Source: Peribolospora baueri
Lineage: Eukaryota
Assembly: GCA_029717555.1 (NCBI GenBank)
Contig: JAMDHS010000120.1
Location: forward strand, 1 to 51,616
Length of the DNA stretch: 51,616 bases
Reading direction: 5' to 3'
Below, piece by piece: positions 1,972 through 51,616 of this stretch; positions within the stretch are counted from its first letter, which is position 1, and the number at the start of each line of letters is the position of its first letter. Position numbers and translations under genes: made by a program. The notes below the pieces were generated by a model that was not told where the DNA came from, searched no databases, and saw only the letters and a program-made list of their open reading frames with translations.

Positions 1972-4900
1972 ATGGCGGGCGAAGCACACCCGGCCCCGCT
2001 CCGGCACCTCCCTCTGCTTCTCAATACGCTCGTCTCTCTCCTCCTCCTGCGGGCTATCTCTCGTTCTTTTCTCGAGACCCAGTCACTTTTGTCACAAGAG
2101 AAAGGATGTAGGATGAGTTGGATGAGCCCCAGCTACGTGAGGCAGGTGTACTTTGATCACAGGTGGACGAGATTGAGCGGAAAGTATAGCCTCTGGCTGT
2201 ACAGGGAGGTGGGATACGATAGAGGGCAGGAGGTGAGTGGAGACGTCGGACGGAGCTCGACGCTCCATTCGGCTTCTTCGTCGACCACACTGAACGACTC
2301 CGATTTGTATTTTGGGTCACAGCCCACAGGAACACCGGCCCTCTTCATCCCCGGCAACGCGGGCTCGTATGCCCAAGTACGATCCATTGCCTCGTCCTCT
2401 GCGCGGCAATTCTACAGCTTACATGACGGCAGGCAAGAGATCGCCAACCCAGCTATCGTAGCGAAAGGAGTCAAGAATGTTGATTGGTTTACCGGTTCGT
2501 GACGGGTCCCTTTCTCGTGGAGTACAGTCCGTGGTCAAGAGCGTGGATCCGACCTTTCCTCCGTCGTCTTTCTGATCGTCGCTCTTTCTTCTCTTGCGAA
2601 CGAACGATCAGTTGACTTCAATGAGGACTTCTCCGCTTTTCATGGCCCAACGCTTCAGGAGCAAGCCGAGTACCTGAACGATGCTATACGCTATGTCCGT
2701 TCGCTCTACCCGTCCTCATCGAACCTCACCGTCCCATTGGTGGGCCACTCCATGGGCGGACTTGTGGCGAGGCTCATGCCCCTTTCGACCAATTACGAGC
2801 CAGGGAGCGTGAGTTCAATTGTCACGCTCAGCACGCCGCACGTCGTGCCCCCAGTGCCGTTCGATAGGCGCATAGAGCGCATCTATTCCACTGTCAACCG
2901 TGCTTGGCAGAGTTTGGCCAAATCCGACCCCGCCGAAGAGCAGGGAGCGGCACCGCATCCCTTGAAGAACACGTTGCTAGTGAGCATTGCTGGCGGAGCG
3001 TCTGACACGCAAATCAACTCAGATCCTACGACGCTCTACACGATTGCGCCGGCGTCGCACTCGCTCAGCTTGTTCACAACCAACATTCCGAGGCTATGGA
3101 GCTGCGTGGATCACCTTGCGATGGCGTGGTGCGATCAGCTCAGGGAGAGGGTCGCGAGAGGCGTTTTGGAGGGACAGGCTTGGGGGCCCGGTGGGGTCGG
3201 CGTCAGTGGAAGGACGGGAGAGGAATTGCTGCGGAGGCGAAGAGAAGGATGGCGGAGACTATTGCTCGCAGGCGTGGGGGACAAGCTGGAAGACTCGGAC
3301 AGGGATCGGAAACACGAAGGCATTCAAACCGTCCACGTCGACGGGGACACGGTGACGGTACCATTCAAAAGTCAGTTCTCTTGGCCTTCTCCTTCGCATG
3401 CCGCTCCAGACCCCTCAAAGTCGTATGTCTTCCCGTTTGACGCGAGTCGGCCCGCCCACTTCACCCTGTTGACCAACGTTAACATTGAAGAGCCGAGCGA
3501 CTTGCTCGTTCAACTTTGCGCGTCGGTGCACAAGCCGACCGCTTCACCTTCAGTCGATGGCCCGCAGCTGACCAACAATCAAGAAGTGCTCGAGTGTCAA
3601 CGCGTTTCTCCACACACTTTCACTGTCCTCCCACCCACTCGCTCAGACGCTAGCAGAATGCGGCCTTTTCCATCGCCCGATGAACACTACATTGGACGCG
3701 AGGTGGACCGATGGCTGGACCTATCATTGGAGGACGTGCTTCGCGGCCGCACAGATAAGAACGCCACAACCTTTGTACGCGTCAAGTTCCTGCAGGGGAT
3801 TGAAGGAATGATCGGTTCCTTTGTTAGGGCTGGTTGGACGCTGGAGGAGGAGAGGAGGACAGTCGTATCTGCAAGCAAGCTCGGTGAGTCTCTCGGCCCA
3901 TCGAAAATTTTCCGCCTGGAGCCAATGATTGTAACCATCCTTCTGGAATCGCCTTGCGTTTGCTACTCTGTCCACCAAAGGTATGGCCATACGTGGAGTG
4001 AGTCTCACGCCAACAATGGCAGGCAAGTCTTCCGTCTTCACGGAATTCGAGGTACCAGCGATGGACAGCTCTCTCTTGGCGTACAACCTCCACATCGAGC
4101 GGTCCTCCTGCGGTCTCGACCACAGAGCCTTCCGTTCCCTCCTGCGCCACTTCACCCCTTCGACGAACGACGCACGCTACTTCCCGCTCTTCGACAACAC
4201 CGACGTCGAGGACATCCCCATCGGCTTTCACGCTTCCTCGCCTTTCTTGCCTCGTCGCTCGTCCATGTGGTCAGACAACGCCCTCCGGTTACAGGTGTGG
4301 AGGCACCCAGACGCAGATCCTTTATGCGTCCCAGAATTCGATAAGGCGGAAATCCGAATAAATTGGTTCGCTACTGCAGGGAGGATGGTAATGCGTTATA
4401 GGATCGCGGGCGTGGCGCTGCCTATCGCCATAGTCGGTTTGACGGCGAGGAAGCAGTGGGCGGAGTTTGGAAGTACCGGTACGTGTGTGTCTCCCTCGTC
4501 TCATCAGTCCTTCGAGCTAGAGCACTCCGAATGGTTTAGAGGTAGGCGCGATTGATCTTCCTGATATCTGTTGCACTGGTGGACCTCGTCGCTCCCCACA
4601 GGCCATTTTCCTCCCTTTTTCGGAGCCTTGTCGGCCGTCGCACGCGAGACGCTACCGCTCTTCCTTGCAGCGAGCTCCGTGCTCCCCATCCTGCAAGCCT
4701 GGCTTCTCTCCGGACCCCTTTCGGACCGATCCTCCACTTCGCTCACTTCAAGTATATTTGAAGACATGCTGCTTGGCAACGACGACGCCTTCTTCTGGTG
4801 GCTCGTCCCACTTGGCGTTCTCCTCGCCGTCGGCATCGTCGCATGCGTGGGAGCGGCGTTGGAGGCCTTGGTGTGGTGCGCAGCGCGGTTAATGAGGCTC

Positions 4901-31455: not shown

Positions 31456-33010
31456 CCGCCTCCACAGTGGAAGAAGCGACTGCGCTTTGGCGTCTGCTAC
31501 TCCAGCTCACCGAGCCGCCGTTGCCCAGACTGAACGTGAATATGAGCTGCCGTCTTCAACGTGTTGCTAGCGATGTGACCAAGGCGCCTATGCCACGCCT
31601 GAGATCGCTAAGGCCTGCCGTCACCGGGGATCGTTCGTTCGCGTCCCCGACGTTGGGGAGTTGCGTCTCCGCGTCGTCGTCGGAGCTAAAGTCGCTTGCA
31701 TCCGAGTCGCCGTCACCCTCCGCCACCACCGGCTCTGCCGTTTCCTGGGCGTTGAGTGCCTGTGCGGGTGGCCTTTTGTTGAGAGGCGCGAGGTTAAGAA
31801 CGTAGAGCCCATTCCGAACGCGTCCTTTGGTGACCTCTTCCCTTTTTTGCTCTTGATCCTGGCCTCCTCATCACGCGCCTCAACGATGAAGCCGCGCTTG
31901 GTCAGCTGAGGGACCGAGAGAAGGTTCGCGACCAGTCCTGGTGCATAGAGGACGTCCCTGATCGATTCAGAGCTGCCGTCAGGGAAGACGAGGCGAACGA
32001 CGCCAGAGCCTGGGGCGTTCAGAGTCGCGTTGTTGCCCATGGTGACGCGGTGAGGAGTGCTGAAGGCATTATACTCCCCAAACTACTTCTTGTCGTTGGT
32101 CATGTGCTTACTAGCACCGCTGTCGAGCACCCAGTCATTCTTCTGAGCGTCGGCGTTGAAGTGAGCTTGCGCGGCAACGGCGGAGAAGGTCCAAGCGAAG
32201 GCGGCCCAGTCGTTCTTTTCGCCTTCCTTTTTCTTCTTCTCTTCCTCCATCCTCAGCGTTCGGCATTCGACCTTCTTGTGCCCAACCTTCCCGCAGTGAT
32301 GGCACTTGCCCTTGAACTTGTATTTCTTGAGTCGCGGCCATAGCAGTCTCAGCAGACGACGTCGGAGCATTTTAGGCAACTGTCTGCATCATCTCCTTCT
32401 CGATCTGCTTGACCTCGTGCATCAACTCGTCGGATGGTAGAGTCTCCGTGTGAAAGCGCCAGACTGCTTTGTGAACTTCAAAGGAGGAGGGCAGTCGCTC
32501 GAGGAGCATATAGGTGAAGTCCTCGTCAGCCAACGTCTCTCCTGCCTCGCGGAAGTTGTCTCGCAGGTCCATCATGCGCGCGAAGAAGGCGTTCATAGAC
32601 TCTTTTGGCTCCGGGTGCGTCTTTTTGAGCTCCGAACGCAAATTGAACCTAGTCGCCTTAGACTCGCCCGCGTGAATGTGCTCCAGGTCTGCCCACAGTT
32701 GCTTAGCCGACCTTCTCTCATTGATCTGGCTCAACTGGGTCCTTTCGAGCGTATCGATGATCGCCAGCCTGGCAATAGCGAGAACCCGCCGAAGGGTTTC
32801 GTGCGCCTGGTCCAGTTCGATCCAGTTGGAGTGATAGCTTACTGCCTCCTCCATATCGATGTCGGGCCCATTGGGGTCGATGAAGAACCAGAGCCCCGTC
32901 GACTCTAGGATGTTCGTCATCCTCCTTCTCCATCCGATGTAGTTCGGAGAGCTCAACTTCTGAGCTCCCTGCCAAGAGACAGCAGCGTTGTCCTTGACGC
33001 CCTTGACCAT
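31396..33010 (-). pseudogene. Copia gag-pol remnant (gag, zinc knuckle, protease, GAG-pre-integrase region, RNase H fragment)
   Basis: gag KLSSPNYIGWRRRMTNILESTGLW..LLERLPSSF; TAA at 32372-32374; frameshift near 32330; CHHCGKVGHKKVEC; WVLDSGASKHMT; TAG at 32083-32085; DVLYAPGLVANLLSV; SWSSRRQSAVASSTVEAEYI. Confidence 0.9.
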
Positions 33011-33132
33011 GTTCGCAATCTTGGCCTGCCTTCGGGACGGCTCACTGACCCTAGCTTGGGTGCGTCTGGCTCAGGATCGCCTCTTTCCGACTGAGGCGTC
33101 CCGGCCCTTCTGCCACCTCTACGAAGTCGATG

Positions 33133-35062: not shown

Positions 35063-36327
35063 TCATGTAAACCGTCTGACCACGAGAACGGCCAAAAGGC
35101 CAGCGACAAGGATCATCGCTCGGTCTACCCAAGTGGCGAGCGGCGTAGACAGCATGGTTACAGAGTTTCCGCGCGGTCTATGGTCTGTAGGAGTGTCCGG
35201 GCCTGACGAGGAGTTCCGAGCCGGACGATGAGAATGTCCAGGACTGGGACCCTGCGCCGGTGGCAATGAGGGCGGCGAGGTGGCCGCTTCATCTGTCTCA
35301 GCCCGAGACGCAGGTTGAGCAGCGTCATGAGAAGTCTCGGAGCGCAGCCCGCCAGACATGTCCACAGTAAGCCCGTCTGGAAGGGTCGGCTTGACGGCAG
35401 GTGCAGAGGAGTGCGATGGATTGGGCAGCAGCTCGAGGTTGGTGCATTCGCAAACGGGACAGCGCCAGTGATGAGACCTGCAGGGGAAGCCGGTCGACAT
35501 ATGAAGAAAAGACTTCCTTTCAGCGTGCGCCTGACAGGAACGGAGTAACATGAGAACTGGTAAAACGACACAGAGCTGATGACTCACGCCTTTGCCAGCC
35601 TCCTTCTCTCCTCTTCCGGATAGTCCAAACTGCCCACGCCAACGCCCTTCTCGCCTTTCGCGCTCATGAACGCCTGCACGCCGAGCAATGCAGTCCTAAC
35701 TCCCCATGCAGGTTGCCACATCTCTTCGTGGAAGCCGGTGAACGTGAGACAGATCTGTCAAGGGGAAACATAGCTCTGTGAGCCCCAGAACGTAAAAGAA
35801 AGCATGCGTGCCAATACGTCATGCTAGAAACTATCCGCACTCGCCTTCTTATTCAACTCCCACCTTCCGTTGGGAGTAAGCATCATCACGTTCGGCGGTC
35901 GGAAAGGGTATTCAGCGGGGAGACTTATACGGCCATGGTAGAGACCGTTTTCAAACTCTGTCTTCTCGGGACCACCTATAATGCAGAAAGAAAGAAGGAC
36001 AACGGTGAAAAGGGCGAGAAGATGCTTGGCAAGGACGATTTCACGAACCCTCCTCTGTAGACTCACGGAAAGTGAAGTGCCACTCGAAGATGTTATCCTC
36101 CAATGGAGCCGCGTGGTATTCCGTGCTCTTGTCCTCCTCCATCTCCCTAGCTTCAGACAGAATGCGCTTGACGGCTACGTCGGGGAAACGACACATACGA
36201 ACATGGACCGAACTCGTTAGTCTATTCGCGCCCCTTGAGCCGTGCCGCCACTCCAAAGCGCCAGTATGGTTCGTGCAGCCGCTCACTCACAAGCGCTCTT
36301 CCGGTTGTAGGAGGTTTTGGTGGCCAT
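35063..36327 (-). CDS. UBC6: Tail-anchored ubiquitin-conjugating enzyme E2 (UBE2J1/Ubc6 class), multi-exon
   Basis: MATKTSYNRKSAS/VKRILSEAREM..APLEDNIFEWHFT..YHGRISLPAEYPFRPP..TPNGRWELNKK/ICLTFTGFHEEMWQPAWGVRTAL; C-terminal TM helix. Confidence 0.92.
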
Positions 36328-36581
36328 ATTACTGGCGAGTTACCGGGTCCGCTCGTCGCCTCAGGCTCTGGAGCCGTTCAACAAGGTGGTGGTGAGAGAA
36401 GAACGTCACCAGTTGCGGTGGGACGATTCGAGCGTGCCAGCCTGGCCAGCCACGTGCGGCTACCCCACCCCTCGGTTGTTCGGCCGGCTTCTCGGATTGT
36501 GAGCGCCGCAGCAAGTTGGATTGCCTGGAAGTTCGCTACTCCCCTTTTTCTGACCAGCCCAGAACTGAACCCTTCACGACC

Positions 36582-38090
36582 ATGACCGACAATCCCGATG
36601 TTGCCCACAACGACGGCTTCACGACGGTGACCAAGTTTAAGTACAAGTCATCCTCGTCTAAAAAGCGCAAAGGCAAGCGTGGAGGCGCGTCGGGAACTCA
36701 GGGATGGGGTGAGAGGCCGGAAGGCGATGTCCAGACGGAGCCGGAAAGGACAGTGGACATCATTCGGGATAGGGAAAAGGTGATGCAGGAGACGGAGTGG
36801 TTTAAAGAATGGAAAGGTACTCCTTTATCTCTCAAGCACACCATGCTATAACGACTTCATTTACCCTTCTATCACGTCAACGCTTATCATCCCTGTGCTC
36901 AACATTCGTTCCAGACCTCTGCGAGCAAGTCCTCAAACACGCTGATTCTTCCTCATCACCTGAGATGAAGACGGAAGATGGCGGGAGACCACTCCCGCAA
37001 TATTCGATATCCCAAGTTGTCTCGTTTGGTCTTGGAAGTGTCAAGGACGCTCGGATACCTCAATTCCAACTGGTTTTGCTTCTTGATCTCATGCGCAGAT
37101 TAGGTGTGGGTATCGTTCGGAGTTCTGTTCGTTGATACAGAGTCTGCAAACAGTCTGTTTTGGCATACGCGTAGAGTTTGACTACAACCGGTGGTTGTTT
37201 TCAGTCGTCGGTCAAAGTCTCCTGCTACGATCCCGTCTTCACGGCGCGGGATGCCGAGCTGCTCCAGCGGTTTGGCATTGAGGTGATGGACCGGAACGAC
37301 GTGAGTGGTCCTTCTCCGGTTATAATAGTTTCTTTCGATTGCATTCGAATTTAGAGCTAGACGGCCGCATTATTGCCTTTACGCTTTGATGCGTTCCTCA
37401 CAGCAAGCACGGTTCACCATCCACGCCATGGACGAGCAGCCGCCGCCTTCTCCGACGCTCTCTTCATCCTCCTTTTACACGCCCCCAGCCTCCCCGTCAT
37501 CATCAGACATTGAAGAACCGCTCTCTCATCTGTCACTTTCCGATCGACCCGCTGCCTCCACCTCCACTTCTTCCCCTTTCCAGGACACGTCATCCAAGGC
37601 ACCTCCAGCATTAGACGAGGAACTCCCAGTCACTCTCTTCTACATGCCCCACTGCGGTCGAGGCATGTATGAAAACCTCCTTAGGTCGAACTGGGACCGG
37701 CATAGACTTGGCAAAATGATCTTGCTCTGCAACGACCTGGCCTCATACGGAGAACGGGTCAGCGATCGAAAGCTTGAGAAGGAGTCTCCTTGTATTTTTC
37801 GTCTGAGTGAGTGCGGTCCGTCGGCCTGTCGTAGCTCGTCTCCAGCCATCGTTTAAACCATATCGCCGAGCTCATGTCAGTCCTCGATCCGTATCCCTCA
37901 TTCAGTACCCCACCTTAGGAGTTTACCCTTACCGGCTGCTTTTCTGGCCAACGACATCTTCAACGACCTCGCCCTCCAGTGGGTACCCGCGGAGGCATTG
38001 GACCGGTTGTGCAAGGACGGTGATGAGGCTGCCGAATTTTGGCAGCTGCCAGCCGAAAGCAACGCTGGCCTTGATCCCGAGATGCGTTGA
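36582..38090 (+). CDS. SRR1-like protein (sensitivity to red light reduced 1; yeast Ber1 family), multi-exon
   Basis: VVSFGLGS..QFQLVLL, YDPVFTARD, TLFYMPHCGRGMYENLLRSNW, FNDLALQW. Confidence 0.88.
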
Positions 38091-38260
38091 ATGAAGTCCT
38101 TCATTGCAACGAACCCAAGCTCCGTCGGCGAGGAGGTGATTCGATAGATTGGCGAGAATGGTTAGTCTACAGTTAGCGTCGAGAAAGGGTCGGTTTTCCG
38201 GAAAGAGTCGGAAATAGGCATATACACAATTCCAGACAACAAAGAATACGACGACGAGGC

Positions 38261-39681
38261 TCAAAGGGCGGTACCGCGCTCGAAGTTTTCGCGGATCTCG
38301 GCGGTATACTTGTCGTAGAACTGCACGGAGAAAAAGGAGGAAACAAGTGAGTGTCAGATCGGAATGTCCAGAAATGGATAGGCAACAATTAGGAAGCCGT
38401 GCAAGCGAGAAGAATAAGCCGCGCTTACCCTTGCGATCTTCTTGTTGAAGTGCTTGTTGCGGTCATTGATATACGTGACATCTCCGTCCTCGTCGTCGCG
38501 CTTACGGGAGCGCTTTGCTCGGCGGTGAGCGCTGAGGTGCAGGGCGTGGGGAGGTTGGGGGAAGACATAGTGAGGAATTAGCATGGCTCATTCGTCTCCG
38601 CTGCAACACAGAGCGAGAAAACACGCACTCCAAGTTAAGGTGCTTAATGACCCGATCGATGCCTTCTTCGCTAGGTTTATGGTCCCCGTAGACCAATGTG
38701 TTCGCGTCCCGGTACAAGTCCTCTCTTCGCACTACCGCTGCATCCCCGCGAGCAGAGCCCGAAGCAATAAGAGCGCCGCTGCTACCGGCACTCTCGGCTG
38801 AGGAAGAGGAGAGACCGGCGATGGCGGAGCGTTGCATTTTGTAGGCGACAATATCCGGTTTCATATCTGAAACGAGGCGCTGGTACTTGCGCTCTGCCGC
38901 TTCGCTAAAGTCTGTTCATGTCAACAAGGTATAGCCGTCAGAGGTCAGATGCACAATTTCCCTGTGATATATGGAGTGAAGCCAAGGATGGGCAAAAGCA
39001 GCCAAACTTACCTCCGAGACCTTTGTCCTTCCTCGCTTCCTTCTCCTCCAATTTCTTCTCCCACCGCTCGTTATCCTCAATCGAGTACTCCCAGTTCTTC
39101 TTGCGCTCCCAGTCCTCTCCAGCTTCCCTAGCATCCCGCTCCTCCAGCAGTTCCTCCGCCTGTCGGAGCTTGCGTTCCAAGCGCGCGTTCTCCCTCGCCG
39201 ACGTCTTGTTCCGGTTGTGCTCTTCTACCAAGTCTTTTCGGTTAGCAATAGAGGACTGGTTCTATAAACGAACAAAAAGAGATTGATATATACCCTTATC
39301 AGTATGGAAAGACACGTTCTGTCCCATGATCAACGTAGTCAAGATAATGACACTCACCATCCGCAGCCTGAGCTGGCGAAGCCGTTCCGCGCGTTCATCC
39401 ATGGTCATCTTCACTGCCGGAGACTGGTCTCCTCCATTCTCCTCAGCTACAACCTCCTTCGCCTTCCCTTTGGAATTTCCGGCAGACGAAGTCTGGTCGC
39501 CTGATGCCTCGTCCACGTTCGCGGGGATTACATCCTTCTCGTCGCCGGAGGCTTCGCTGGACCGCTCTACAGGCTGCTGCACGTCCGAAGCCTCTAAAAC
39601 ATCCTCCTCCTTGGCCTCTACCTTCTCTTCTTCCTTCTTCGAGCCGCGCTTGGCGGCTGCCTTGGTCTTGCGAGGAGGCAT
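38261..39681 (-). CDS. SYF2: Pre-mRNA splicing factor SYF2, multi-exon
   Basis: AGEDWERKKNWEYSIEDNERWEKK, YGDHKPSEEGIDRV, DVTYINDRNKHFNKKIAR/FYDKYTAEIRENFERGTAL*. Confidence 0.96.
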
Positions 39682-39819
39682 GTTTGCGGCGGTGGCGGTG
39701 GTCGATAGGATAGGATGTGTTGCTTTTCGCCCGTCGACAGTGAGGCGATCACAGCCCTGCTGCGGCAAGTTGGCTCAACAGGTCAGCCATTCCTTTCGTT
39801 TTGCCTTCCCTCATCGCCG

Positions 39820-41632
39820 ATGTCGACGAGAACGAGGACGAGGACGATGGCGCCCGATGGTACGCCTTCGGGGACCAGCAAGAAGAAGTCTAAGCCCGCC
39901 AAGTCCAAGACTCCTAAGGAGCCCAAGGAGCCCAAGGCGCCCAAGCTCCGCACCAAAGTCATCGTCCGGCGCCTGCCGCCGCATGTACCCGAAGACGTCT
40001 TCTGGAACAGCGTCTCACCCTGGGTGAACGAGGAGACTGCTGACTGGAAAAAGTTCATCCCGGGCAAGTTTCGAACGAGGTGAGAAAACGAGACAGGCGG
40101 CGCCTTGTTTATTTCTTTCTCTGTTCCCCTTGTTGATTTCACTCTTGCTTTCTGTCCAGCGTCAACAAGGAGAACGTCAGTTCCCGAGCATACGTGCATT
40201 TCAAGAAGCCCGAGAGCGTAGTCGAATTCCATCAAGGGTACGATGGCCACTTGCTTAGAGATAGCAAGGGTGAGAGAGCTATTGCGAGGAATGGGTGGGG
40301 GAATGCATGTGTGCGACTGTTCGCTAACTGTCTGGCTGAACTCTGACCTTTGCCCCTCCAAGGCCATGAAAGCGTCGCAGTCGTGGAGTTTGCGCCGTTC
40401 CAGAAGGTGCCTCAGGAGCGCAAGAAGTCCGATGCGCGGAAAGGTACCATAGACGATGGTGAGGGCTACGTACATATGTGTAGACCATGTTCCGTACTCG
40501 CTGTTCTCATGCTCCTGTGGTTTGTGTTTGCAGATCCGGATTTCATCGACTTTATCGAGAACCTGAACAAGCCTAAAGAGCCGGTTGGAGACGACAAGGA
40601 TGTTTTGGAGGCACAGAGCTTATTAGGTGCGTTCCGAATTCTTCTTTTACATTGTATATGTGAGTCGCTTGCTCATGCAATGCCAGATGCGTGGCATCTT
40701 GCATCCACTCAGGTGGCCTTAACACGAACCCTTCTGTCGAGCCAAAAAAGGTGTCGACACCTCTGCTGGATCACCTTCGCGCAGCCAAATCTGCCGCTGC
40801 GGAGAGCTCTGCCCTGGCCGCCGCAAGGCAATACCAAAATCCCTACTCTTACCGCTACCCTGCGCAGCCGGGTGTGCCAACCTCCGGACGTGGAGGTCGA
40901 GGTGGTAGTCGATCCGGCAGGGGAGGAGGTGGCGGTGGCAAGGCCACGACGTCATCTACCAAGAATAAAGTTAAGGAGGTGGCGAAGGCGGCTGCTTCTG
41001 GCCCCGCCTCCTCGGGCGAGGCGAGCTCGGAAAAGAAGAAGAAGAAGGGTCACTCGACGGCCACAACGGATCGAGTCGCACAGAACAGGCACTTCACTGC
41101 CGCCCTAGGGGCCGCGCTGGGAGCGCCTGGCAAGAAAGGTGGGAAGGAAGGAAGGGAGAAGGAGAAGGCTAAGGGGAAGGAGACGGACGGGCGCAACGCT
41201 ACGGTCCAGACTTCCGGCAAGGTACCGGAAGAGACTGAGAAGGATGGAGAAGTGAAGAAGAACAGGCGGAATAAGGGTGGCAAAGAGGCGCGCGACCCTT
41301 CAAGCCAAGAATCCCCCTTGAAGACTGACAAGAAGGATCGCGGACAGCCTTCGCGCCGCCAGCAGTCGCAACAACCGGCGCCAGCACGAGTGCCACCAAC
41401 TCAGAAGGTGGTCATTCTCCAGCGGGACAACGCAACCCCTACGGCCGACGCTTCTTCTTTGCCTTCGACCAAACCCGCGGATGCCAAAACCCCTGACGTT
41501 CAGACTGGCGAGCAGGGACCCGCGAGAGGTGGAGCCGCTAGAGGTGGTGGACGTGGACGAGGTCGCGCCGGAGGCGGTGGACACAAAGGTCGCGGCGGTC
41601 TTCCGAAAGGCGCTGCCGAAGGCGCCGGTTGA
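39820..41632 (+). CDS. UPF3: Nonsense-mediated decay factor UPF3 (Smg-4/UPF3 family), multi-exon
   Basis: KVIVRRLPP, SSRAYVHFK, FHQGYDGHLLRDSKG, AVVEFAPFQKVP, DARKGTIDD/DPDFIDF, STPLLDHLR; RGG-rich C-terminus. Confidence 0.93.
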
Positions 41633-45831: not shown

Positions 45832-45837
45832 TATAAA
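45832..45837 (+). promoter_or_regulatory. Candidate TATA box of the Trp/Gly peptide precursor gene; possible 5'UTR intron 45868-45918
   Basis: TATAAA about 105 nt upstream of the ATG at 45940; GTAACT...CCCTGCAG lies between them. Confidence 0.4.
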
Positions 45838-45939
45838 GACGCTCCGCTGCAGACTTGACTTCGCTCGGTAACTCTCAGCTCGAGCTGGTGCGTCCTCTGT
45901 CTCCTCCTGTCCCTGCAGTTGAAATCCCCGTTCGCAATC

Positions 45940-48094
45940 ATGAAGGTTTCCATCACGGTCGCTACCGTCTGTCTGGCTCTCTCCGTGGCCAAGGCGGCGC
46001 CCGTCAATTACGACGAGTCTTCGCCAGAAGCGCTTGATAAGAGGCAGTGGTGGGGCGGCCCTTGGGGCTTTGGCTGGTGGGTACTTCGCTTCTATCTTCA
46101 CCGCCAATCCTGACGTCTCATTCCATTTCATCTTTGCTCTTTTAGGGGAGACTGGTGGAAGGATCACCAGCAGCACCAGCAGCGTGACATCTCCTTTGAG
46201 CGCGACGTCCCGCTTCCGCCTGGCCTCGACAAGAGGCAGTGGGGCTGGGGTGGTTGGGGAGGTTGGGGGGGCTGGGGGGGCTGGAGAGACTGGTTGGTCG
46301 AGATCTCGATCATGAAAGTTTTTGTTCGAAGCTGAAGCTGATGTCAACCTGTGCTCATCTGCGCCTATCTTTCAGGGACTGGTGGAAGGAGCACCAGAAG
46401 GAACTTGAGCAGCGTGACATCTCCGATGACGAAGATGATTTGCAGAAGCGCCTCTGGTGGGGTGGTTGGGGTCCGTGAGTAGCTCTCGCCGTCCTGTTCC
46501 TGCTCCACTTGTCATTAACCTGACTTCAATACATTTATTTTTTTCGTCCAGTGGTTGGGGCTGGGGTGACTGGTGGAAAGAGCACCAGCGTCGTGAAGAT
46601 TTCACGGAGAACGACATTTTGAACGCGCGTGGCTACTCGGATGAAGAGCTCGACCGCCTCTTTGGCGAGCGTGCTGATGAGGGTGAGGATCTTGACAAGA
46701 GGCAGTGGGGCGGGGGCGGCTGGGGCGGCGGGGGCTGGGGGGGCCAGGGCGGCTGGGGCGGCGGGGGCTGGGGGGGCCAGGGCGGCTGGGGCGGCCGGGG
46801 CGGCTGGGGCGGCGGGGGCTGGGGGGGCCGGGGCGGCTGGGGCGGCGGGGGCGGCGGGGGCTGGGGGGGCCGGGGCGGTGGATGGGGTGGTGGTCGGTGA
46901 GTATTTCAAAACGTCCACTATCTCTCCTTTGGTGCATGTTGTCGGGTTGACCGACTGAAATCTATCACTCTGTCTGGCAGCGGTGGTGGGGGGGGAGGTT
47001 GGTCGAAGAAGCGTGACATTTTGAGCGCGCGCGGCCTTTCGGATGAGGAAATTGATAACTTTGCCAAGCGCAGCGATGGCGGCGAGGTGGACCTTGACAA
47101 GCGCCTCTGGTGGTGGGGGTCGCCGTGGGGCTGGTGAGTGGCCTGTCATTCTGTGCTGTGAAGCTTCATTGTCGACGATAATTGAAGCGTGTGGCTATGT
47201 CATTCATCTCCCGCTGCACCAGGAACTGGTGGCAGGATCACAAGCAGCAGAGGGACGAGATCTTTAGGAGGGATGGGACCTTGGACGACGAGAAGTGGTA
47301 AGTCAGCTGTCCACCTAGCTGCACCTCACCCACCGCTCCTCAACTGACTTCTGCCGCCAACATTGCAGGGACGACTTTTGGAAGAAGGACGGTCAGGAGC
47401 TGGTGAAGAATGGCCTACTCGAACCCGATGAGGAGGTTGCCAAACGCCAGTTTGGGTTCGGCAGCGGTGAGTACATGTAGAACTCTGAACCGAAATGTGA
47501 TGTATTACGAACAATCTATTAACTGAGACCATTGATAATTTGCGGGGACAGGCAACGCGCTCGCCTTCCAGGTCAGCCGACGATGAGATCCGTCTATAGT
47601 CTTCGAGCAAAGAACAGCAACTGATGCGAACATATTTGTTTTGCTGCTTTCCAGAGCGCCAACGGAGGCTGGGGAGGCCCTGGTGGCTGGGGGTTCAACT
47701 TCGGGGGATGGAAGCGCCAGGTGCCCGCGATGGTCATCCCACACGAAGAAGAGCGGGGGATGAACGAGGACCGTGGCTCTGATGATGATCCCTGGGAGGA
47801 AAGGGAGAAGAGACAGTTCGGGTTTGGTGGTATCGCCATCGGTGGTAATGGTGGACCCGGAGGCTGGGGAGGACCTGGGTGAGTAGGATTGGGGTAGAGA
47901 AGATGTGATGCGTCGGACGACGTGGACACTGATGTTCGTTCTCGCGACATATTCTGCATCGTACCATCAGAGGGCTCAACATCAACGCTGGCGGGCTGTA
48001 AGTCGCCCTGTACGCCGCTCGGTATCGACCTGAGCTGCCAGCTGAAGCCTGTGACGCTTGTTTTGCTTTTTCCAGAAATGGCTGGTGGTGGTAA
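45940..48094 (+). CDS. Secreted Kex2-processed repeat protein (KEP): precursor of Trp/Gly-rich peptides, 11 exons
   Basis: Exons 45940-46076, 46146-46292, 46376-46474, 46552-46896, 46981-47133, 47223-47297, 47369-47466, 47552-47571, 47655-47878, 47971-47997 and 48076-48094 all have GT-AG borders and splice into one open frame. The protein is a signal peptide followed by repeated acidic spacer-KR-core modules. Confidence 0.88.
46706..46896 (+). repeat. G-rich coding minisatellite (ggctgggg... units, 15/18 bp) encoding GGW/GGGGW/GGxGGW repeats
   Basis: Read directly; about 11 tggggg-containing units. Confidence 0.9.
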
Positions 48095-48276: not shown

Positions 48277-49735
48277 TCAGATCGTCGAACGCATACGTCC
48301 GTTTGCGGAGAGCCTTCTCACTTTACCTTTGTCTTTGTCGACGCTTTCTGTTTGACCGACGTCAGGTGTAGGATCCAAGTCGACGCTTTCCGTCTGACCG
48401 ACGTCAGGTGTAGGATCCAAGTCGACGCTTTCCGTCTGACCGACGTCAGGTGTAGGATCCAAGTCGACGCTTTCCGTCTGACCGACGTCAGGCGTAGGAT
48501 CCAAGTCCGGCTCGCTCAACGCCGTCGTCGCACCGCCTTGGTTGAGATTCGTGCTGCCGTACCCTCCTCGTCCGCCGGAGCCTCCGTTCCCTCCGACTGC
48601 CGCCGCGGCGGCGGATCCCTGTCCCTGTCGCCCAGGTGCACTGCTCGTACCGCCCAAGTTGAGGGTACCGCCAGAACCCGAAGCGGTGTTATGGCCTAGT
48701 CCACCACCTCCGCCCGCGCCCCCGCTGTGCCAGGATGACACGGCGACGAAAAGGTCAGCCGACTGCTGTGGCCGTCGAGAGAAGGCCTCTGAACCCGGTA
48801 AAAAGGAGACGAGGGGGTATCAGGTCTCACCCTGCTGCTTGGTAGCCGTGCGCATTCCCGGAATCGTTTCCGCGATCGATCCCGTTGCCCTATTCGATCG
48901 TCGCGCCCAAAACAAAACGTTGAAGGTCACTTCAGCTGGGATCCGGATTCCCCAAAGCGAACAGCATACACCCAGCTTTAACGCCTTTTCCGAAAGCGAC
49001 GCAAAAGGGGCTCACATCGTTTATTGCCTGCTGGTTTCCGCTCCCTCCCAGGTCTCCTTGGTGAACCCGGTGCCGATGCCCGCCGCCACTGCCTTGGCGG
49101 CCTCGGCTCTTCCCGGACGAGTCGTGGAAGCCGAGCACGCCGAGCACGCCTTCGCTGGACAGGTCTCGCTTCGGGAGGTGCTTAAGCGGGTGGCTGAGTA
49201 CGTCGTCCAGCGAATGCGGCAAGACGGGAATGGACGGTAAAACAGGTTTGGGTCGCCGGTGAGTGTGGTGAGACCCGGGACGGGCAGCATGTCCACGATG
49301 GGATGCGAGGGCTTCGTGGTTTGAAACGGGCTGACGAATGCTAGGATAGTTTTCCGCTTTGGAGACAGGCGCCTTGGTATTATCCCCCGCTTGCGGCTTG
49401 CCGGCTTTGGCAACGCTCTCGGCGTTGTGGACGTTGGTACTGCTCACGCCAGGAGCGCCCGCCCTACCTGGCTGTCCGTCCAGACCAGACGGGAGCAGAG
49501 TGAGGTCTTGCCCGTTTTCGTACGACGTCAACTTGGTCCAAGCATCGTCGAGGGAGCTTTGAGCGTCTGCGATGTCGTCGGTGTAGGCCCGAGCTCGTAC
49601 GCTGTCGAATGAAGGTCTTGGCACGTTCTCGCGACGTTCGAGCGGATGGAGAGGGCAGGAAGCGCAAGCGAAAGCGGTGTGAAGGGCGAGAAGAGTGGAG
49701 ACTGAGAGCAGAGGAATCAACGCAAGCATCTTCAT
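48277..49735 (-). CDS. Secreted Gly-rich protein with dibasic sites and a 4 x 14-aa acidic repeat; 3 exons proposed, 3' end uncertain
   Basis: Signal peptide MKMLALIPLLSVSTLLALHTAFA; dibasic sites LERR, HRR and LPKR. Exons 49735-49016, about 48889-48831 (GNGIDRGNDSGNAHGYQAAG) and about 48725-48277 with GT-AG borders. Confidence 0.75.
48337..48504. repeat. 42-bp minisatellite x4, encoding DLDPTPDVGQTESV on the minus strand
   Basis: gtcgacgctttccgtctgaccgacgtcaggtgtaggatccaa at 48337, 48379, 48421 and 48463; no spacers. Confidence 0.97.
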
Positions 49736-50323
49736 ATCTGGAAGTGTGTGGGGAGGGGAAGCAAGACGTCAAGACTGGCCGGAGTCCGCGAGGCGTGGAA
49801 TCAGGCTTCGAAGCGGATCGACGCGACTGGACTGACGCGATCGGCAGATGTGCTTTTCGTTTGCGATCCTCCTCCTACGCCCTCCTTCACCCCCCTACCC
49901 CGCGCCCTCCTCTTTCCGCATTCTCAGCCCACTTCGCAGCAAAACATAAAGTCCATTTTATTCATAAGAGGCACTCGAAAAGTGCCCATCCAAATGTCCA
50001 TCGATAACCGGGGGGAAAAAGGGAAGAGAAGACGTTATGACATGGTCCATAAAAGAACCAGAACAGAGTAAGGATGTGCAGGAGAGACGATGGGCAAGAG
50101 GAACGTGGAGGTGAGCCTGGTCCACCTGCGTCCGCGTCCATCCATCCGGTCCAGTCCTCCCAAGGGTGGTGAACAGAACGAACGAGGGACGGGGAACAAA
50201 GGGCGTAGTAGTGGTGGTGGTGGTAATGGGCAAGAGAAGGGACGCAAGTACAATAGGATGGACGGACAAGTGGATGAACAAGAAGGAGTGATGCTGAGTC
50301 AGGCAGGTCTGCTGTCGCCGCCT

Positions 50324-51616
50324 TCACCAGCCGCCTTGCGCAACAGCGCCGCCGGCAGGAGAGAGGATAGGGACGTTAGCGCCGAGGCCAATCAGGTCAC
50401 CGCTGGCGCCGGCAGAGTTGGAGCCGCCGATGGCGGCGGCATTGCCGTTGTTGTGGTCGTCCTCGTGGTACCAGCGCTTGTACCCACGGAAAGGGAAACC
50501 GGCACCGTAGTTGCCGGGGGCGCCGTAAGCGCTAGCGCCACCGGCGGGCGAGGCGACAGGGACGTTGGCGGCAATGCCGATCAGGTCGTTGTTGGCCTGG
50601 GCAGAGTTGCAGCCACCCTTAGCGGCCGCGTTGCCATTGTCGTGGTTGTCGCGCTTCCGGCCACCCTGACCGACGGCGCCACCGGCGGGCGAGGCGATAG
50701 GGGCGTTGGCGGCAATGCCGATCAGGTCGTTGTTGGCCTGGGCAGAGTTGCAACCACCCACAGCGGCCGCGTTGCCGTCGTGGTGGCCGTCGTGGTGGTC
50801 GTCGTCCCAGCGCTTCCAGCCACCGTGAGCGACAGCGTTACCGGCGGGGGAGAGGATAGGGACGTTAGCGGCGAGGCCGATCAGGTCGCCGTTGGCGCTG
50901 GCAGAGTTGGAACCGCCAATAGCGGCGGCGTTGCCGTTGTCGTAGCCGTGGTCGTGGTCCCAGCGCTTCTTGAGGATGCCGCCGCCGTTGGCGTCAGCGC
51001 CGCCGGCAGGCGAGAGGATAGGAACGTTGAGTCCGAGGCCGACCAGGTCCCCATTGGCGCCCGCAGAGTTGGAGCCGCCGACAGCGCCGGCGTTACCGAC
51101 GCCGAGACCACCCCAGCGCTTCCAGCCTCCCTGAGCGCTAGCGCCACCCGCGGGCGAGGCGACAGGGACGTTGGCGGCAACACCGATCAAGTCGTTGTTC
51201 GCCTCGGCAGAGTTGGAGCCGCCAATCGCAGCGGCGTTGCCGTTGTTGTGGCCCTGGTAGTAGTCGTGATCATGGTGGTACCAGCGCTTCTTGAGGCCGC
51301 CGCCGTTGGCGACAGCGCTGCCGGCGGGGGAGAGGACGGGGACGTTGGCGGCAACGCCGATCAAGTCGCCGTTGGCCTGGGCAGAGTTGGAACCGCCAAT
51401 AGCGGCAGCGTTGCCGTTGTTGTGGCCCTGGTCGTAGTCGTGATCGTAGTGGTACCAGCGCTTCTTGAGGCCGCCGCCGTTGGCGACAGCGCTGCCGGCG
51501 GGGGAGAGGACGGGGACGTTGGCGGCAACGCCGATCAAGTCGCCGTTGGCCTGGGCAGAGTTGGAACCGCCAATAGCGGCAGCGTTGCCGTTGTTGTGGC
51601 CCTGGTCGTAGTCGTG
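50324..51616 (-). CDS. Kex2-processed repeat protein with at least 8 KR-separated ~50-58 aa units (repellent Rep1-like architecture); 5' end beyond the window
   Basis: Frame open from 51616 to the stop at 50324. Unit consensus KR-W(Y/D)H..DH..NGNAAAIGGSNSAxANxDLIGxAANVPxLSPAGxAxAxGG(W/GLK)KR. The outermost units are near-identical at DNA level with a 174-bp period. Confidence 0.92.
   Translation of the reverse strand, partial: HDYDQGHNNGNAAAIGGSNSAQANGDLIGVAANVPVLSPAGSAVANGGGLKKRWYHYDHDYDQGHNNGNAAAIGGSNSAQANGDLIGVAANVPVLSPAGSAVANGGGLKKRWYHHDHDYYQGHNNGNAAAIGGSNSAEANNDLIGVAANVPVASPAGGASAQGGWKRWGGLGVGNAGAVGGSNSAGANGDLVGLGLNVPILSPAGGADANGGGILKKRWDHDHGYDNGNAAAIGGSNSASANGDLIGLAANVPILSPAGNAVAHGGWKRWDDDHHDGHHDGNAAAVGGCNSAQANNDLIGIAANAPIASPAGGAVGQGGRKRDNHDNGNAAAKGGCNSAQANNDLIGIAANVPVASPAGGASAYGAPGNYGAGFPFRGYKRWYHEDDHNNGNAAAIGGSNSAGASGDLIGLGANVPILSPAGGAVAQGGW

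What the first reader, a model, noticed from the sequence alone, without database searches (positions are those of the whole stretch)
45940..48094. Hidden 11-exon gene encoding a library of seven Trp/Gly-rich peptides released at KR sites
Seen: the ORF track shows only fragments, but manual splicing gives a signal peptide plus these cores after KR: QWWGGPWGFGWGDWWKDHQQHQQR; QWGWGGWGGWGGWGGWRDWDWWKEHQKELEQR; LWWGGWGPGWGWGDWWKEHQRR; QWGGGGWGGGGWGGQGGW...GGWSKKR; LWWWGSPWGWNWWQDHKQQR; QFGFGSGNALAFQSANGGWGGPGGWGFNFGGWKR; QFGFGGIAIGGNGGPGGWGGPGGLNINAGGLNGWWW-stop. Acidic spacers end in LDKR, LQKR, VAKR or REKR, and four cores end in a conserved (D/N)WW(K/Q)(D/E)H tail. Established: signal + acidic spacer + KR + core is the layout of KEP/RiPP precursors and of many antimicrobial propeptides, and Trp-rich peptides partition into membranes. 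Inference: a new family of membrane-active or self-assembling peptides; the Trp density is extreme for a fungal protein.
Basis: partly seen in the sequence, partly recalled or inferred. Interest (0 to 1): 0.87.

Follow-up and report, generated by a model that had tools for sequence, protein, structure and literature searches.

The report
Secreted tryptophan-glycine-rich multi-peptide precursor gene
An intron-rich, fungal-type gene appears to encode a secreted precursor cut at ten Lys-Arg sites into several unusual tryptophan- and glycine-rich peptides with no detectable relatives; the layout is a known kind of fungal peptide precursor, but expression and function are untested.

Summary
ATG 45940 to TAA 48094 on the + strand, with 11 exons and 10 GT..AG introns of 69-92 nt, gives an open 447-aa frame with 25.7% Gly and 11.4% Trp. 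Splice-signal density, intron/exon GC contrast, codon bias, and one intron position recurring in four repeat modules all support a real gene. No RNA data could be obtained. The protein has a signal-peptide-like N-terminus and 10 KR sites, against 1.4 expected. Seven of these sit directly before [Q/L][W/F] cores. [quoted passage not shown] It is not a dikaritin-type RiPP locus: no DUF3328 gene was seen and the cores contain no Tyr. Six of seven products are neutral or anionic, which fits surface-active or self-assembling peptides (as with Ustilago repellents) better than classical cationic antimicrobials. No relatives were found in any search, but the organism itself is poorly sampled. A second, unrelated KEP-like gene and another secreted Gly-rich repeat gene lie immediately downstream. 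Verdict: a probable new KEP family of moderate interest.

The parts
45832..45837 (+). TATAAA box-like hexamer, 108 nt upstream of the ATG
   Evidence: Read directly. Its function is inferred.
45940..46076 (+). Exon 1 (ATG; signal peptide, pro-piece, head of module A1)
   Evidence: The first in-frame Met of ORF 45859-46113.
46077..46145 (+). Intron 1, 69 nt, GTGGGT..TAG, CTGAC branch-like site
46146..46292 (+). Exon 2 (147 nt, phase 2-2)
46293..46375 (+). Intron 2, 83 nt, GTTGGT..CAG (weak donor)
46376..46474 (+). Exon 3 (99 nt, phase 2-2)
46475..46551 (+). Intron 3, 77 nt, GTGAGT..CAG
46552..46896 (+). Exon 4 (345 nt, phase 2-2): tail of A3, acidic spacer, most of core 4
   Evidence: The AF2 fold of its translation has low confidence.
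46706..46878 (+). G-rich minisatellite inside exon 4 (periods 9/33/42/51 nt, all multiples of 3) that encodes the (GGGGW/GGRGGW) run of core 4
46897..46980 (+). Intron 4, 84 nt, GTGAGT..CAG
46981..47133 (+). Exon 5 (153 nt, phase 2-2)
47134..47222 (+). Intron 5, 89 nt, GTGAGT..CAG
47223..47297 (+). Exon 6 (75 nt, phase 2-2)
47298..47368 (+). Intron 6, 71 nt, GTAAGT..CAG
47369..47466 (+). Exon 7 (98 nt)
47467..47551 (+). Intron 7, 85 nt, GTGAGT..CAG
47552..47571 (+). Exon 8, a 20-nt micro-exon and the least secure exon. It restores the frame and the spacing between the QFGFG and GGWGGPGG motifs seen in module B7.
   Evidence: Inference.
47572..47654 (+). Intron 8, 83 nt, GTCAGC..CAG (weak donor)
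47655..47878 (+). Exon 9 (224 nt)
47879..47970 (+). Intron 9, 92 nt, GTGAGT..CAG. If retained, the protein ends 2 codons later.
47971..47997 (+). Exon 10 (27 nt)
47998..48075 (+). Intron 10, 78 nt, GTAAGT..CAG
48076..48094 (+). Exon 11 (19 nt, ends in three Trp codons and TAA)
45940..45996 (+). Predicted signal peptide, residues 1-19: basic N-end, about 13 uncharged residues, then small-x-small (AKA) before Ala-Pro
   Evidence: Judged by eye; no SignalP run.
45997..46044 (+). Acidic pro-piece, residues 20-35, ending LDKR
46045..46236 (+). Module A1 (residues 36-76): Trp/Gly head, DWWKDH tail, spacer, LDKR. The span includes intron 1.
46237..46451 (+). Module A2 (residues 77-120), ends LQKR. 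The span includes intron 2.
46452..46702 (+). Module A3 (residues 121-178), internal RR, ends LDKR. The span includes intron 3.
46703..47014 (+). Module C4 (residues 179-254): Gly/Trp/Arg run, the only cationic product, ends KKR. The span includes intron 4.
47015..47104 (+). Two small acidic KR-ended pieces (residues 255-273 and 274-284). They are homologous to the spacer of A3.
   Evidence: (alignment S3/S4)
47105..47447 (+). Module A5 (residues 285-345) with a relic second tail (WDDFWKK), ends VAKR. The span includes introns 5 and 6.
47448..47717 (+). Module B6 (residues 346-379), QFGFG..GGWGGPGG type, ends WKR. The span includes introns 7 and 8.
47718..47813 (+). Acidic spacer (residues 380-411), ends REKR
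47814..48091 (+). Module B7 (residues 412-447), the C-terminal core ending in three Trp. The span includes introns 9 and 10.

Best explanation
This is a protein-coding gene (45940-48094, + strand, 11 exons) for a 447-aa secreted pre-pro-protein of the Kex2-processed repeat protein (KEP) type.

Inferred pathway:
- Signal peptidase removes about 19 residues.
- In the late secretory pathway a Kex2-type convertase cuts after the ten KR sites. Five have Leu at P4. It may also cut at RR, KK and one LxxR site.
- A Kex1-type carboxypeptidase trims the basic residues.
- The six new N-termini that start with Gln can cyclise to pyroglutamate.

The result is a mixture rather than many copies of one peptide:
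- four type-A block peptides, each with a 13-16-residue Trp/Gly head, a (D/N)WW(K/Q)(D/E)H polar tail and an acidic extension;
- one long cationic (Gly4-Trp)n/Arg peptide;
- two QFGFG..GGWGGPGG peptides;
- small acidic spacers.

Most likely mode of action (inference, about one chance in three): the peptides act outside the cell at interfaces, as surface-active or self-assembling coat material on the wall or at the air/water or host surface. The Trp-rich heads would drive interfacial partitioning and stacking, as the Rep1 repellents do in Ustilago.

The gene grew by tandem duplication of symmetric phase-2 exon-intron units. It is not part of a RiPP tailoring cluster.
For: Gene model:
- All 10 of 10 introns are GT..AG and 69-92 nt long. 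Seven carry GT[AG]AGT.
- There are 7 such donors on the + strand and 0 on the - strand inside the gene, against 35 and 26 in the whole window. Poisson P = 8e-4.
- 8 of 10 introns have a CTRAY-like site 16-38 nt from the 3' end.
- Introns are 48% GC, the CDS is 65%, and GC3 is 74%.
- GC3 without Gly/Trp/Met codons is 71.6% in frame (199 of 278), against 65.0% and 53.1% in the other frames. Codon preferences are AAG:AAA 20:2 and CAG:CAA 21:0.
- Retaining any intron gives a stop within 2-15 codons.
- Introns 1, 2, 5 and 6 all split a Trp codon (TG|G) directly before the tail motif. Exons 2-6 are all phase 2-2 with lengths that are multiples of 3.
- A TATAAA sits 108 nt upstream of the ATG.

KEP layout:
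- The N-terminus looks like a signal peptide.
- There are four type-A and two type-B repeats.
- KR occurs 10 times against 1.41 expected. None of 100,000 shuffles reached 10.
- The P4-P1 contexts are LDKR x4, LQKR, VAKR, REKR, FAKR, GWKR and SKKR. Seven of the 10 sites are followed by [QL][WF].
- Kex2 prefers Arg at P1, Lys at P2 and Leu or another aliphatic residue at P4 (PMC8528282, passages).
- The KEP definition comes from PMC6339444 (passages).

Function:
- Trp-rich heads have strongly favourable interfacial free energy. The best 15-residue window scores -11.2 kcal/mol on recalled Wimley-White values.
- Whole type-A fragments are net -1 to -8.
- Repellents are Kex2-released peptides of 34-53 aa that form amphipathic amyloid films (PMC3133707, passages).
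- Two further secreted Gly-rich repeat genes lie directly downstream, and one is itself KR-punctuated.
Against: - No transcript evidence could be obtained.
- No homologue was found, so there is no conservation or selection evidence.
- Three donors are weak (GTGGGT, GTTGGT, GTCAGC).
- Exon 8 is only 20 nt, and the last two exons are 27 and 19 nt.
- Introns 5 and 10 lack a branch-like match.
- Asp at P3, present in the four LDKR sites, is described as kinetically unfavourable for Kex2. The same tetrapeptide is, from recall, the yeast alpha-factor site.
- Whether the organism has Kex2 or Kex1 could not be checked, because no genome is held.
- The repeats are far less uniform than in typical KEPs.
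- The functional step rests on analogy only: no sequence similarity to any characterised self-assembling peptide was shown.
- The neighbouring KEP-like gene shows no sequence similarity to this one (-0.9 bits).
- The AF2 model of exon 4 is low-confidence (pLDDT 53).
Confidence: 0.6

Rival explanations
1. The product is an antimicrobial or defence peptide cocktail. The released Trp/Gly-rich peptides would insert into membranes of competing microbes, as Trp-rich and Gly/aromatic-rich animal antimicrobial peptides do.
For: - Trp-rich heads score strongly on the interfacial scale.
- Core 4 is cationic, at +7 with its KKR end and +4 after trimming.
- Several different peptides from one precursor would suit a broad spectrum.
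- Secreted glycine- and tyrosine-rich peptides of the nematode NLP/CNC families are regarded as antimicrobial peptides (PMC2453101, passages).
Against: - Six of the seven core-bearing fragments are neutral or anionic, from 0 to -8 once the KR ends are included. Classical membrane-active antimicrobial peptides are cationic.
- The cores contain no Cys.
- No similarity to any known antimicrobial peptide family: Pfam none, PDB none at E<=1.
Confidence: 0.2
2. There is no functional gene here. A G-rich low-complexity or minisatellite tract happens to allow an open spliced frame, or the locus is an untranscribed or decaying relic.
For: - No RNA evidence and no homologue.
- The database search with exon 4 did not return even a self-match, so no gene model for this stretch is in the protein collection.
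- With flexible GT..AG choices, long open frames can be built in many sequences.
- The core-4 tract is a minisatellite.
Against: - Consensus donors are concentrated on one strand only (7 against 0, P = 8e-4).
- Intron lengths are uniform at 69-92 nt, with an intron/exon GC contrast of 48% against 65%.
- Codon bias is frame-specific outside Gly and Trp codons.
- There is a signal-peptide-like start and sevenfold KR enrichment, with KR placed before each core.
- The same intron position and phase recurs in four modules.
Confidence: 0.1
3. The product is an unprocessed or partly processed glycine-rich wall or matrix protein. It would stay largely intact and act as a disordered, adhesive or phase-separating extracellular matrix component.
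For: - Gly is 25.7% of the protein and the Gly/Trp run is modelled as low-confidence coil.
- The neighbouring gene 48277-49768 also encodes a secreted-looking Gly-rich repeat protein without regular KR punctuation.
Against: - KR sites are placed exactly at module borders with P4 Leu. That is hard to explain without processing.
- No GPI-type or wall-anchoring C-terminus is evident in the sequence (by eye).
Confidence: 0.07
4. The gene encodes a RiPP precursor (dikaritin or another class), or a pheromone-like or host-directed signalling peptide precursor. The host-directed option includes GW/WG Argonaute-hook mimicry.
For: - KEP layout is shared with ustiloxin-type precursors and alpha-factor-type pheromones (PMC7329392 and PMC6339444, passages).
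- The dense GW/WG dipeptides resemble Argonaute-binding motifs (recalled, not from any call).
Against: - None of the 120 ORF translations in 35.8-51.6 kb or the 19 larger ORFs elsewhere hit DUF3328 or any tailoring enzyme. The neighbours are housekeeping genes.
- The cores contain no Tyr. The only two Tyr residues, 24 and 156, lie in the pro-piece and a spacer.
- None of the 10 KR sites is followed by an XA or XP Ste13 dipeptide.
- The cores are long and unlike each other.
- Kex2-cut secreted peptides have no evident route to host Argonaute.
Confidence: 0.03

Closest known systems
Kex2-processed repeat proteins (KEPs) as defined by Le Marquer et al. 2019 (PMC6339444) and surveyed by Umemura 2020 (PMC7329392)
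   Same: A signal peptide, at least 3 internal repeats, KR sites between repeats, and repeats covering more than 15% of the length. KEPs with two or three motif types exist (79 of 1193 in that survey). Motif lengths of 25-50 aa are common in yeast-like Basidiomycota.
   Different: The cores are not near-identical copies: there are three sequence classes with variable lengths of 20-75 aa. Trp content is extreme at 11.4%. The acidic extensions are bounded by a single Arg rather than a dibasic site. No sequence relative was found. The gene is split into 11 exons with introns at repeat-equivalent positions.
Rep1 repellent precursor of Ustilago maydis
   Same: A secreted pre-pro-protein cut at Kex2 sites into about ten peptides of 34-53 aa. 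These act extracellularly as amphipathic, self-assembling surface material (PMC3133707, passages; PMC8528282). Peptide sizes and the standalone, non-cluster gene context are similar.
   Different: No sequence similarity was shown. Self-assembly of the present peptides is untested. The composition here is Trp/Gly-dominated.
Alpha-factor-type pheromone precursors of Ascomycota
   Same: Signal peptide, pro-region, and KR-flanked Trp-containing peptides processed by Kex2 and Kex1. An LDKR-type site is shared (recalled).
   Different: No Ste13 XA/XP dipeptides follow KR (0 of 10 sites). The cores are 2-7 times longer than the 9-24 aa pheromone class and are not repeated copies of one peptide.
Dikaritin / ust-RiPS precursors (ustiloxin, phomopsin, asperipin)
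   Same: They are KEP-type precursors with KR-separated cores.
   Different: Those have short Tyr-containing identical cores and DUF3328 (UstYa) genes nearby. Here the cores contain no Tyr and no DUF3328 gene was seen.
Glycine/aromatic-rich secreted antimicrobial peptides of nematodes (NLP/CNC families)
   Same: They are secreted Gly plus aromatic low-complexity peptides (PMC2453101, passages). This is a functional analogy only.
   Different: They come from a different kingdom, are Tyr-rich rather than Trp-rich, and share no homology. Most of the present peptides are not cationic.

Membership tests
KEP (Kex2-processed repeat protein; Le Marquer 2019) | N-terminal signal peptide | tested here: met
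   Residues 1-19 show a basic start, about 13 uncharged residues, and a small-x-small site before Ala-Pro. Judged by eye; no SignalP was available.
KEP (Kex2-processed repeat protein; Le Marquer 2019) | At least three internal repeated motifs | tested here: met
   Four type-A modules align with invariant W, WG and WW..H columns. Two type-B modules share QFGFG and GGWGGPGG. The repeats are degenerate compared with typical KEPs.
KEP (Kex2-processed repeat protein; Le Marquer 2019) | KR/RR/KK sites between the repeats | tested here: met
   10 KR against 1.41 expected; none of 100,000 shuffles reached 10. Every core is preceded by KR.
KEP (Kex2-processed repeat protein; Le Marquer 2019) | Repeats occupy at least 15% of the protein | tested here: met
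   The shortest type-A core (20 aa) times 4 gives 80 of 447 residues, or 18% (lengths).
KEP (Kex2-processed repeat protein; Le Marquer 2019) | Actual cleavage by Kex2, and presence of Kex2/Kex1 in the organism | not testable with these tools
   No genome is held and no proteomic data are available.
Dikaritin / ust-RiPS precursor | DUF3328 (UstYa) gene among the nearest neighbours | tested here: not met
   Pfam scans covered 120 ORF pieces of at least 70 aa in 35.8-51.6 kb and 19 larger ORFs across the window. None hit DUF3328. Only 3.5 kb downstream could be seen.
Dikaritin / ust-RiPS precursor | Short, near-identical Tyr-containing cores | tested here: not met
   The protein has two Tyr residues, at 24 and 156, and neither is in a core. 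The cores are 20-75 aa and dissimilar.
Alpha-factor-type pheromone precursor | Ste13 XA/XP dipeptides after KR, and repeated 9-24 aa peptide copies | tested here: not met
   The residues after KR are QW x3, LW x2, QF x2, QV, DI and SD.
Rep1-type repellents | Sequence homology to Rep1 | tested here: inconclusive
   phmmer with exon 4 against 1.84 billion representatives gave only 3 Gly-rich low-complexity hits at E of 2e-4 or weaker. Only one exon could be searched, and Rep1 itself could not be fetched. The primary papers are not held.
Rep1-type repellents | Peptides form amphipathic amyloid-like films at the cell surface | not testable with these tools
   This needs ThT/CD/surface-tension assays and a deletion strain.
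Cationic Trp-rich antimicrobial peptides | Net positive charge of the mature peptide | tested here: not met
   Only core 4 is cationic. The other six core-bearing fragments range from +2 (including KR; 0 after trimming) to -8.

The most novel reading that the evidence does not exclude
In a poorly sampled fungal lineage, one small locus holds at least two unrelated Kex2-punctuated precursor genes plus a third secreted Gly-rich repeat gene. Together they would supply a new class of aromatic (Trp/Gly) block-amphiphile peptides. These would self-assemble into the cell's hydrophobic or adhesive surface layer, a third invention of that function beside hydrophobins and Ustilago repellents. The module library would have been built by duplication of symmetric exon-intron units.
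Probability: 0.2. Interest if true: 0.75.

Novelty: new member of a known kind. Interest (0 to 1): 0.45.

Why it matters
KEPs are abundant in fungal genomes, yet their functions are described as largely unknown (abstract of PMC9769878, seen in the listing). A precursor whose products are 13-16-residue Trp/Gly blocks joined to polar tails would be an unusual natural design for interfacial or self-assembling peptides. It could be tested directly with synthetic peptides. The case also shows how such genes escape annotation: ten short introns break the frame into pieces that look like noise, and no model for this stretch is in the protein collections searched. If the surface-coat reading holds, it would add a new sequence solution to how fungi make hydrophobic or adhesive surfaces. 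If the antimicrobial reading holds, it would add non-cationic Trp-rich peptides to that field.

Tried and rejected
- RNA evidence: the look-up of sequencing runs (kind rna) listed no RNA holder, so none was listed. Read laying therefore could not be used.
- Whole genome: none is held. Paralogues, Kex2/Kex1 and genome-wide Trp statistics could not be checked.
- Homologue searches for the target, all blank:
  - The word-index search of exon 4 residues 1-54 among proteins of 201-2000 aa gave 14 candidates, none at E<=0.01.
  - phmmer of exon 4 against 1.84 billion representatives gave 3 hits at E 2.3e-4 to 8.5e-4. All are Gly-rich low-complexity proteins.
  - Two metagenome scans, with exon 4 and exon 9, gave 597 and 598 pattern matches. 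None was confirmed.
  - The ESM Atlas gave no usable hit.
  - PDB sequences gave 0 hits at E<=1.
  - Pfam gave nothing at E<=0.01. At E<=10 the only hit was a spurious Peptidase_C37 match to exon 5, E = 0.034.
  - Only single exons could be queried, because the spliced protein was not passed to the search tools.
- Control on sampling: the neighbouring PGAP1 ORF finds 423 proteins at E<=1e-20, but the best identity is 51%. The organism has no close relative in the collection, so the blanks are weak evidence of rarity.
- KEP catalogues: motif strings were absent from the held supplements of PMC6339444 and PMC7329392. The positive control YAIG is also absent, and Table S2 of PMC6339444 is only a web link. 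These files hold no core sequences, so the blanks mean nothing.
- Literature: the motif-string search returned 12 papers, none on such peptides judging by title. The phrase search for glycine/tryptophan-rich returned 1 unrelated paper.
- Curlin-like impression of the type-B cores and the neighbouring gene: no Curlin or other family appeared in Pfam even at E<=10. Dropped.
- Kinship between the target and the neighbouring KEP-like gene: an HMM of its 8 units scores -0.9 bits on the target. Rejected. An HMM of type-A cores finds no further copy elsewhere in the window.
- Intron-intron similarity as a sign of recent duplication: z values of 2.6-4.8 are spread over 20 of 45 pairs without pattern, probably from shared splice signals. 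Not used.
- AF2 models: exon 4 scored pLDDT 53.2 and the neighbouring gene 35.4. Both are too poor for fold search.
- The bacterial promoter/terminator scan is irrelevant for a eukaryotic gene.
- An attempt to derive comparison introns from the SYF2 and UPF3 genes was not clean enough to use.
- The Rep1 primary papers are not held.
- Complex prediction was not used: no natural full-length core lies in a single exon, and filament-type assemblies are poorly served by it.
Full report

The model is on the + strand, from the ATG at 45940 to the TAA ending at 48094. Ten GT..AG introns give a 1344-nt open frame of 447 codons. All seven cores, the spacer ends and the (D/N)WW(K/Q)(D/E)H motif appear as described. 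Composition is 25.7% Gly and 11.4% Trp, with 51 Trp in 447 residues. From recall, proteins average a little over 1% Trp.

**2. Is it more than chance?**

An open spliced frame alone is weak evidence, because GT..AG pairs are plentiful. The following points carry the weight.

- (a) Seven introns start with GT[AG]AGT. Inside the gene there are 7 such hexamers on the + strand and none on the - strand, against 35 and 26 in the whole 51,616-nt window. About 1.5 are expected, giving Poisson P = 8e-4, or 2.8e-4 when the gene is excluded from the background. Of the 9 looser donor matches on the + strand, 8 are used and the ninth lies inside intron 10.
- (b) Intron lengths are tight at 69-92 nt. Nine introns end in CAG and one in TAG. 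Eight of 10 have a CTRAY-like site 16-38 nt from the 3' end.
- (c) Introns are 48% GC, the CDS is 65% and the window is 58%.
- (d) Outside Gly, Trp and Met codons, GC3 is 71.6% in frame (199 of 278) against 65.0% and 53.1% in the shifted frames. AAG:AAA is 20:2, CAG:CAA is 21:0 and CAC:CAT is 6:0.
- (e) Retaining any one intron brings a stop within 2-15 codons.
- (f) Introns 1, 2, 5 and 6 each split a Trp codon (TG|G) immediately before the tail motif. Exons 2-6 are all phase 2-2 with lengths divisible by three. A wrong model would not be expected to produce that regularity. It is the signature of growth by duplication of exon-intron units.
- (g) A TATAAA lies 108 nt upstream of the ATG, and the ATG is the first Met of its ORF.

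The weak points are three non-consensus donors, the 20-nt exon 8 and the two tiny terminal exons. Exon 8 is supported by more than frame restoration: it gives module B6 the same spacing between QFGFG and GGWGGPGG as module B7. No RNA run could be listed, so the junctions remain predictions.

**3. Anatomy of the protein**

Residues 1-19 look like a signal peptide (by eye). KR occurs 10 times in the mature part, against 1.41 expected from composition. The maximum in 100,000 shuffles was 8. The sites read LDKR x4, LQKR, VAKR, REKR, FAKR, GWKR and SKKR. Seven are followed by [QL][WF], and six new N-termini are Gln. Kex2 needs Arg at P1, prefers Lys at P2 and favours Leu or another aliphatic residue at P4. 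Asp at P3 is said to be kinetically unfavourable (PMC8528282, passages).

The modules fall into three classes:

- **Type A**, four modules (A1, A2, A3, A5): a Trp/Gly head, the WW-K/Q-D/E-H tail and an acidic extension. A5 carries a relic second tail.
- **Type C**, one module: a long Gly/Trp/Arg run encoded by a minisatellite at 46706-46878 whose periods are all multiples of three.
- **Type B**, two modules starting QFGFG.

The spacer after A3 and the two small pieces after core 4 are also homologous to each other.

Only the one in A2 fits the extended LxxR motif, and A3 has RR. Kex2 alone would therefore release type-A peptides with their acidic extensions attached. Their net charges would be -1 to -8.

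**4. Surroundings**

Pfam scans covered 19 larger ORFs across the window and 120 ORF pieces of at least 70 aa in 35.8-51.6 kb on both strands. They show housekeeping neighbours: PGAP1, a CBM21 protein, OPA3, DUF455, PL14, a copia gag, an E2 enzyme, SRR1, SYF2, UPF3 and a SAP-domain protein. No DUF3328, tyrosinase, methyltransferase or P450 was seen. This is a standalone precursor, not a tailoring cluster.

Two further secreted-looking repeat genes lie directly downstream on the other strand.

- The gene at 48277-49768 has a signal-like start, Gly/Asn-rich tracts and four perfect 14-aa repeats from a 42-nt array.
- The gene at 50324-51616 runs off the window. It has eight 49-59-aa units separated by KR/KKR. 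This second KEP-like gene shows no sequence similarity to the target (-0.9 bits) and has no relatives of its own.

**5. Relatives**

None was found for the target by any route. Two caveats limit what that means.

- Only single exons could be used as queries.
- The organism is poorly sampled. Its PGAP1 neighbour finds 423 fungal-type proteins, but none above 51% identity.

No fungal genome DNA collection was available. The exon-4 search did not return a self-match either, so this gene is not modelled in the collections searched.

**6. What it is and how it probably works**

The architecture meets each sequence criterion of the KEP definition: a signal peptide, at least 3 repeats, KR/RR/KK between them, and repeats covering at least 15% of the length (PMC6339444, passages). 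I therefore file it as a KEP-type precursor.

The steps of secretion, Kex2 cleavage, Kex1 trimming and pyroGlu formation are inferred from the motifs and from established knowledge of the pathway. None is shown here.

For the function I commit to extracellular interfacial or self-assembling peptides, at about one chance in three, for these reasons:

- The type-A products are block amphiphiles. Their heads reach -11.2 kcal/mol over 15 residues on the recalled Wimley-White interfacial scale, while the whole fragments are net unfavourable because of their tails.
- Six of the seven products are not cationic.
- Sizes of 32-74 aa resemble the 34-53-aa Rep1 repellents, which form amphipathic amyloid films on Ustilago hyphae (PMC3133707, passages).
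- The locus holds other secreted repeat genes.

The antimicrobial reading is the main rival at about 0.2. Core 4 is cationic, and Gly/aromatic secreted antimicrobial peptides exist in nematodes (PMC2453101, passages). A non-gene, an unprocessed matrix protein, and RiPP, pheromone or host-mimic readings are less likely.

The AF2 model of exon 4 is low-confidence (pLDDT 53). It shows helices in the tail and spacer and coil in the Gly/Trp run. I use it only as weak support for disorder.

**7. Novelty and verdict**

KEPs number in the thousands and most are of unknown function. A new KEP family is therefore a new member of a known kind. What is unusual is the Trp/Gly chemistry, the heterogeneous module library, the exon-intron duplication history and the adjacency of a second KEP-like gene.

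Literature searches by motif strings and by phrases for glycine/tryptophan-rich found nothing comparable. The held supplements of the two KEP surveys contain no core sequences (control), so they could not be checked.

Expression, processing and activity are all untested, and the absence of relatives is weakly informative for so poorly sampled an organism.

Noticed in passing
window 50324-51616 (- strand; N-terminus beyond the window end): A second KEP-like gene. It is a single open frame of 430 aa with eight units of 49-59 aa, rich in Gly, Asn, Ala and Ser with a His/Asp-rich start, separated by KR/KKR and ending in GGW-stop. It has no Pfam family and no relatives, shows no similarity to the target, and its AF2 model scores pLDDT 35.
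   Followed up: partly
window 48277-49768 (- strand): A probable secreted Gly/Asn-rich protein. The ORF 48932-49768 has a signal-like start (ATG at 49735). The ORF 48277-48819 has four perfect 14-aa repeats from a 42-nt tandem array at 48337-48507 (97% matches). A tentative single 229-nt intron (49015 to 48787) joins them into about 409 aa. No Pfam family.
   Followed up: partly
window 32375-33070 (- strand): A copia-type LTR retrotransposon gag fragment (Retrotran_gag_2, E = 6.6e-22).
   Followed up: no
window 2503-4341 (+ strand): The PGAP1/Bst1-like GPI inositol-deacylase ORF has best database identities of only 40-51%. The hits are spread over Basidiomycota (Mixia, Ceraceosorus, Testicularia), Taphrina and Dothideomycetes, so the source organism has no close sequenced relative in the collection.
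   Followed up: partly
window 46535-47194 and 46633-46905 (- strand): Long Pro/Ala-rich open frames lie antisense to the Gly/Trp run. They are a mirror effect of the G-rich coding strand, and there are no consensus donors on this strand inside the gene.
   Followed up: partly
window 35800-41100: A dense run of intron-split housekeeping genes (E2 ubiquitin-conjugating enzyme, SRR1, SYF2, UPF3) shows that the genome is generally intron-rich.
   Followed up: no
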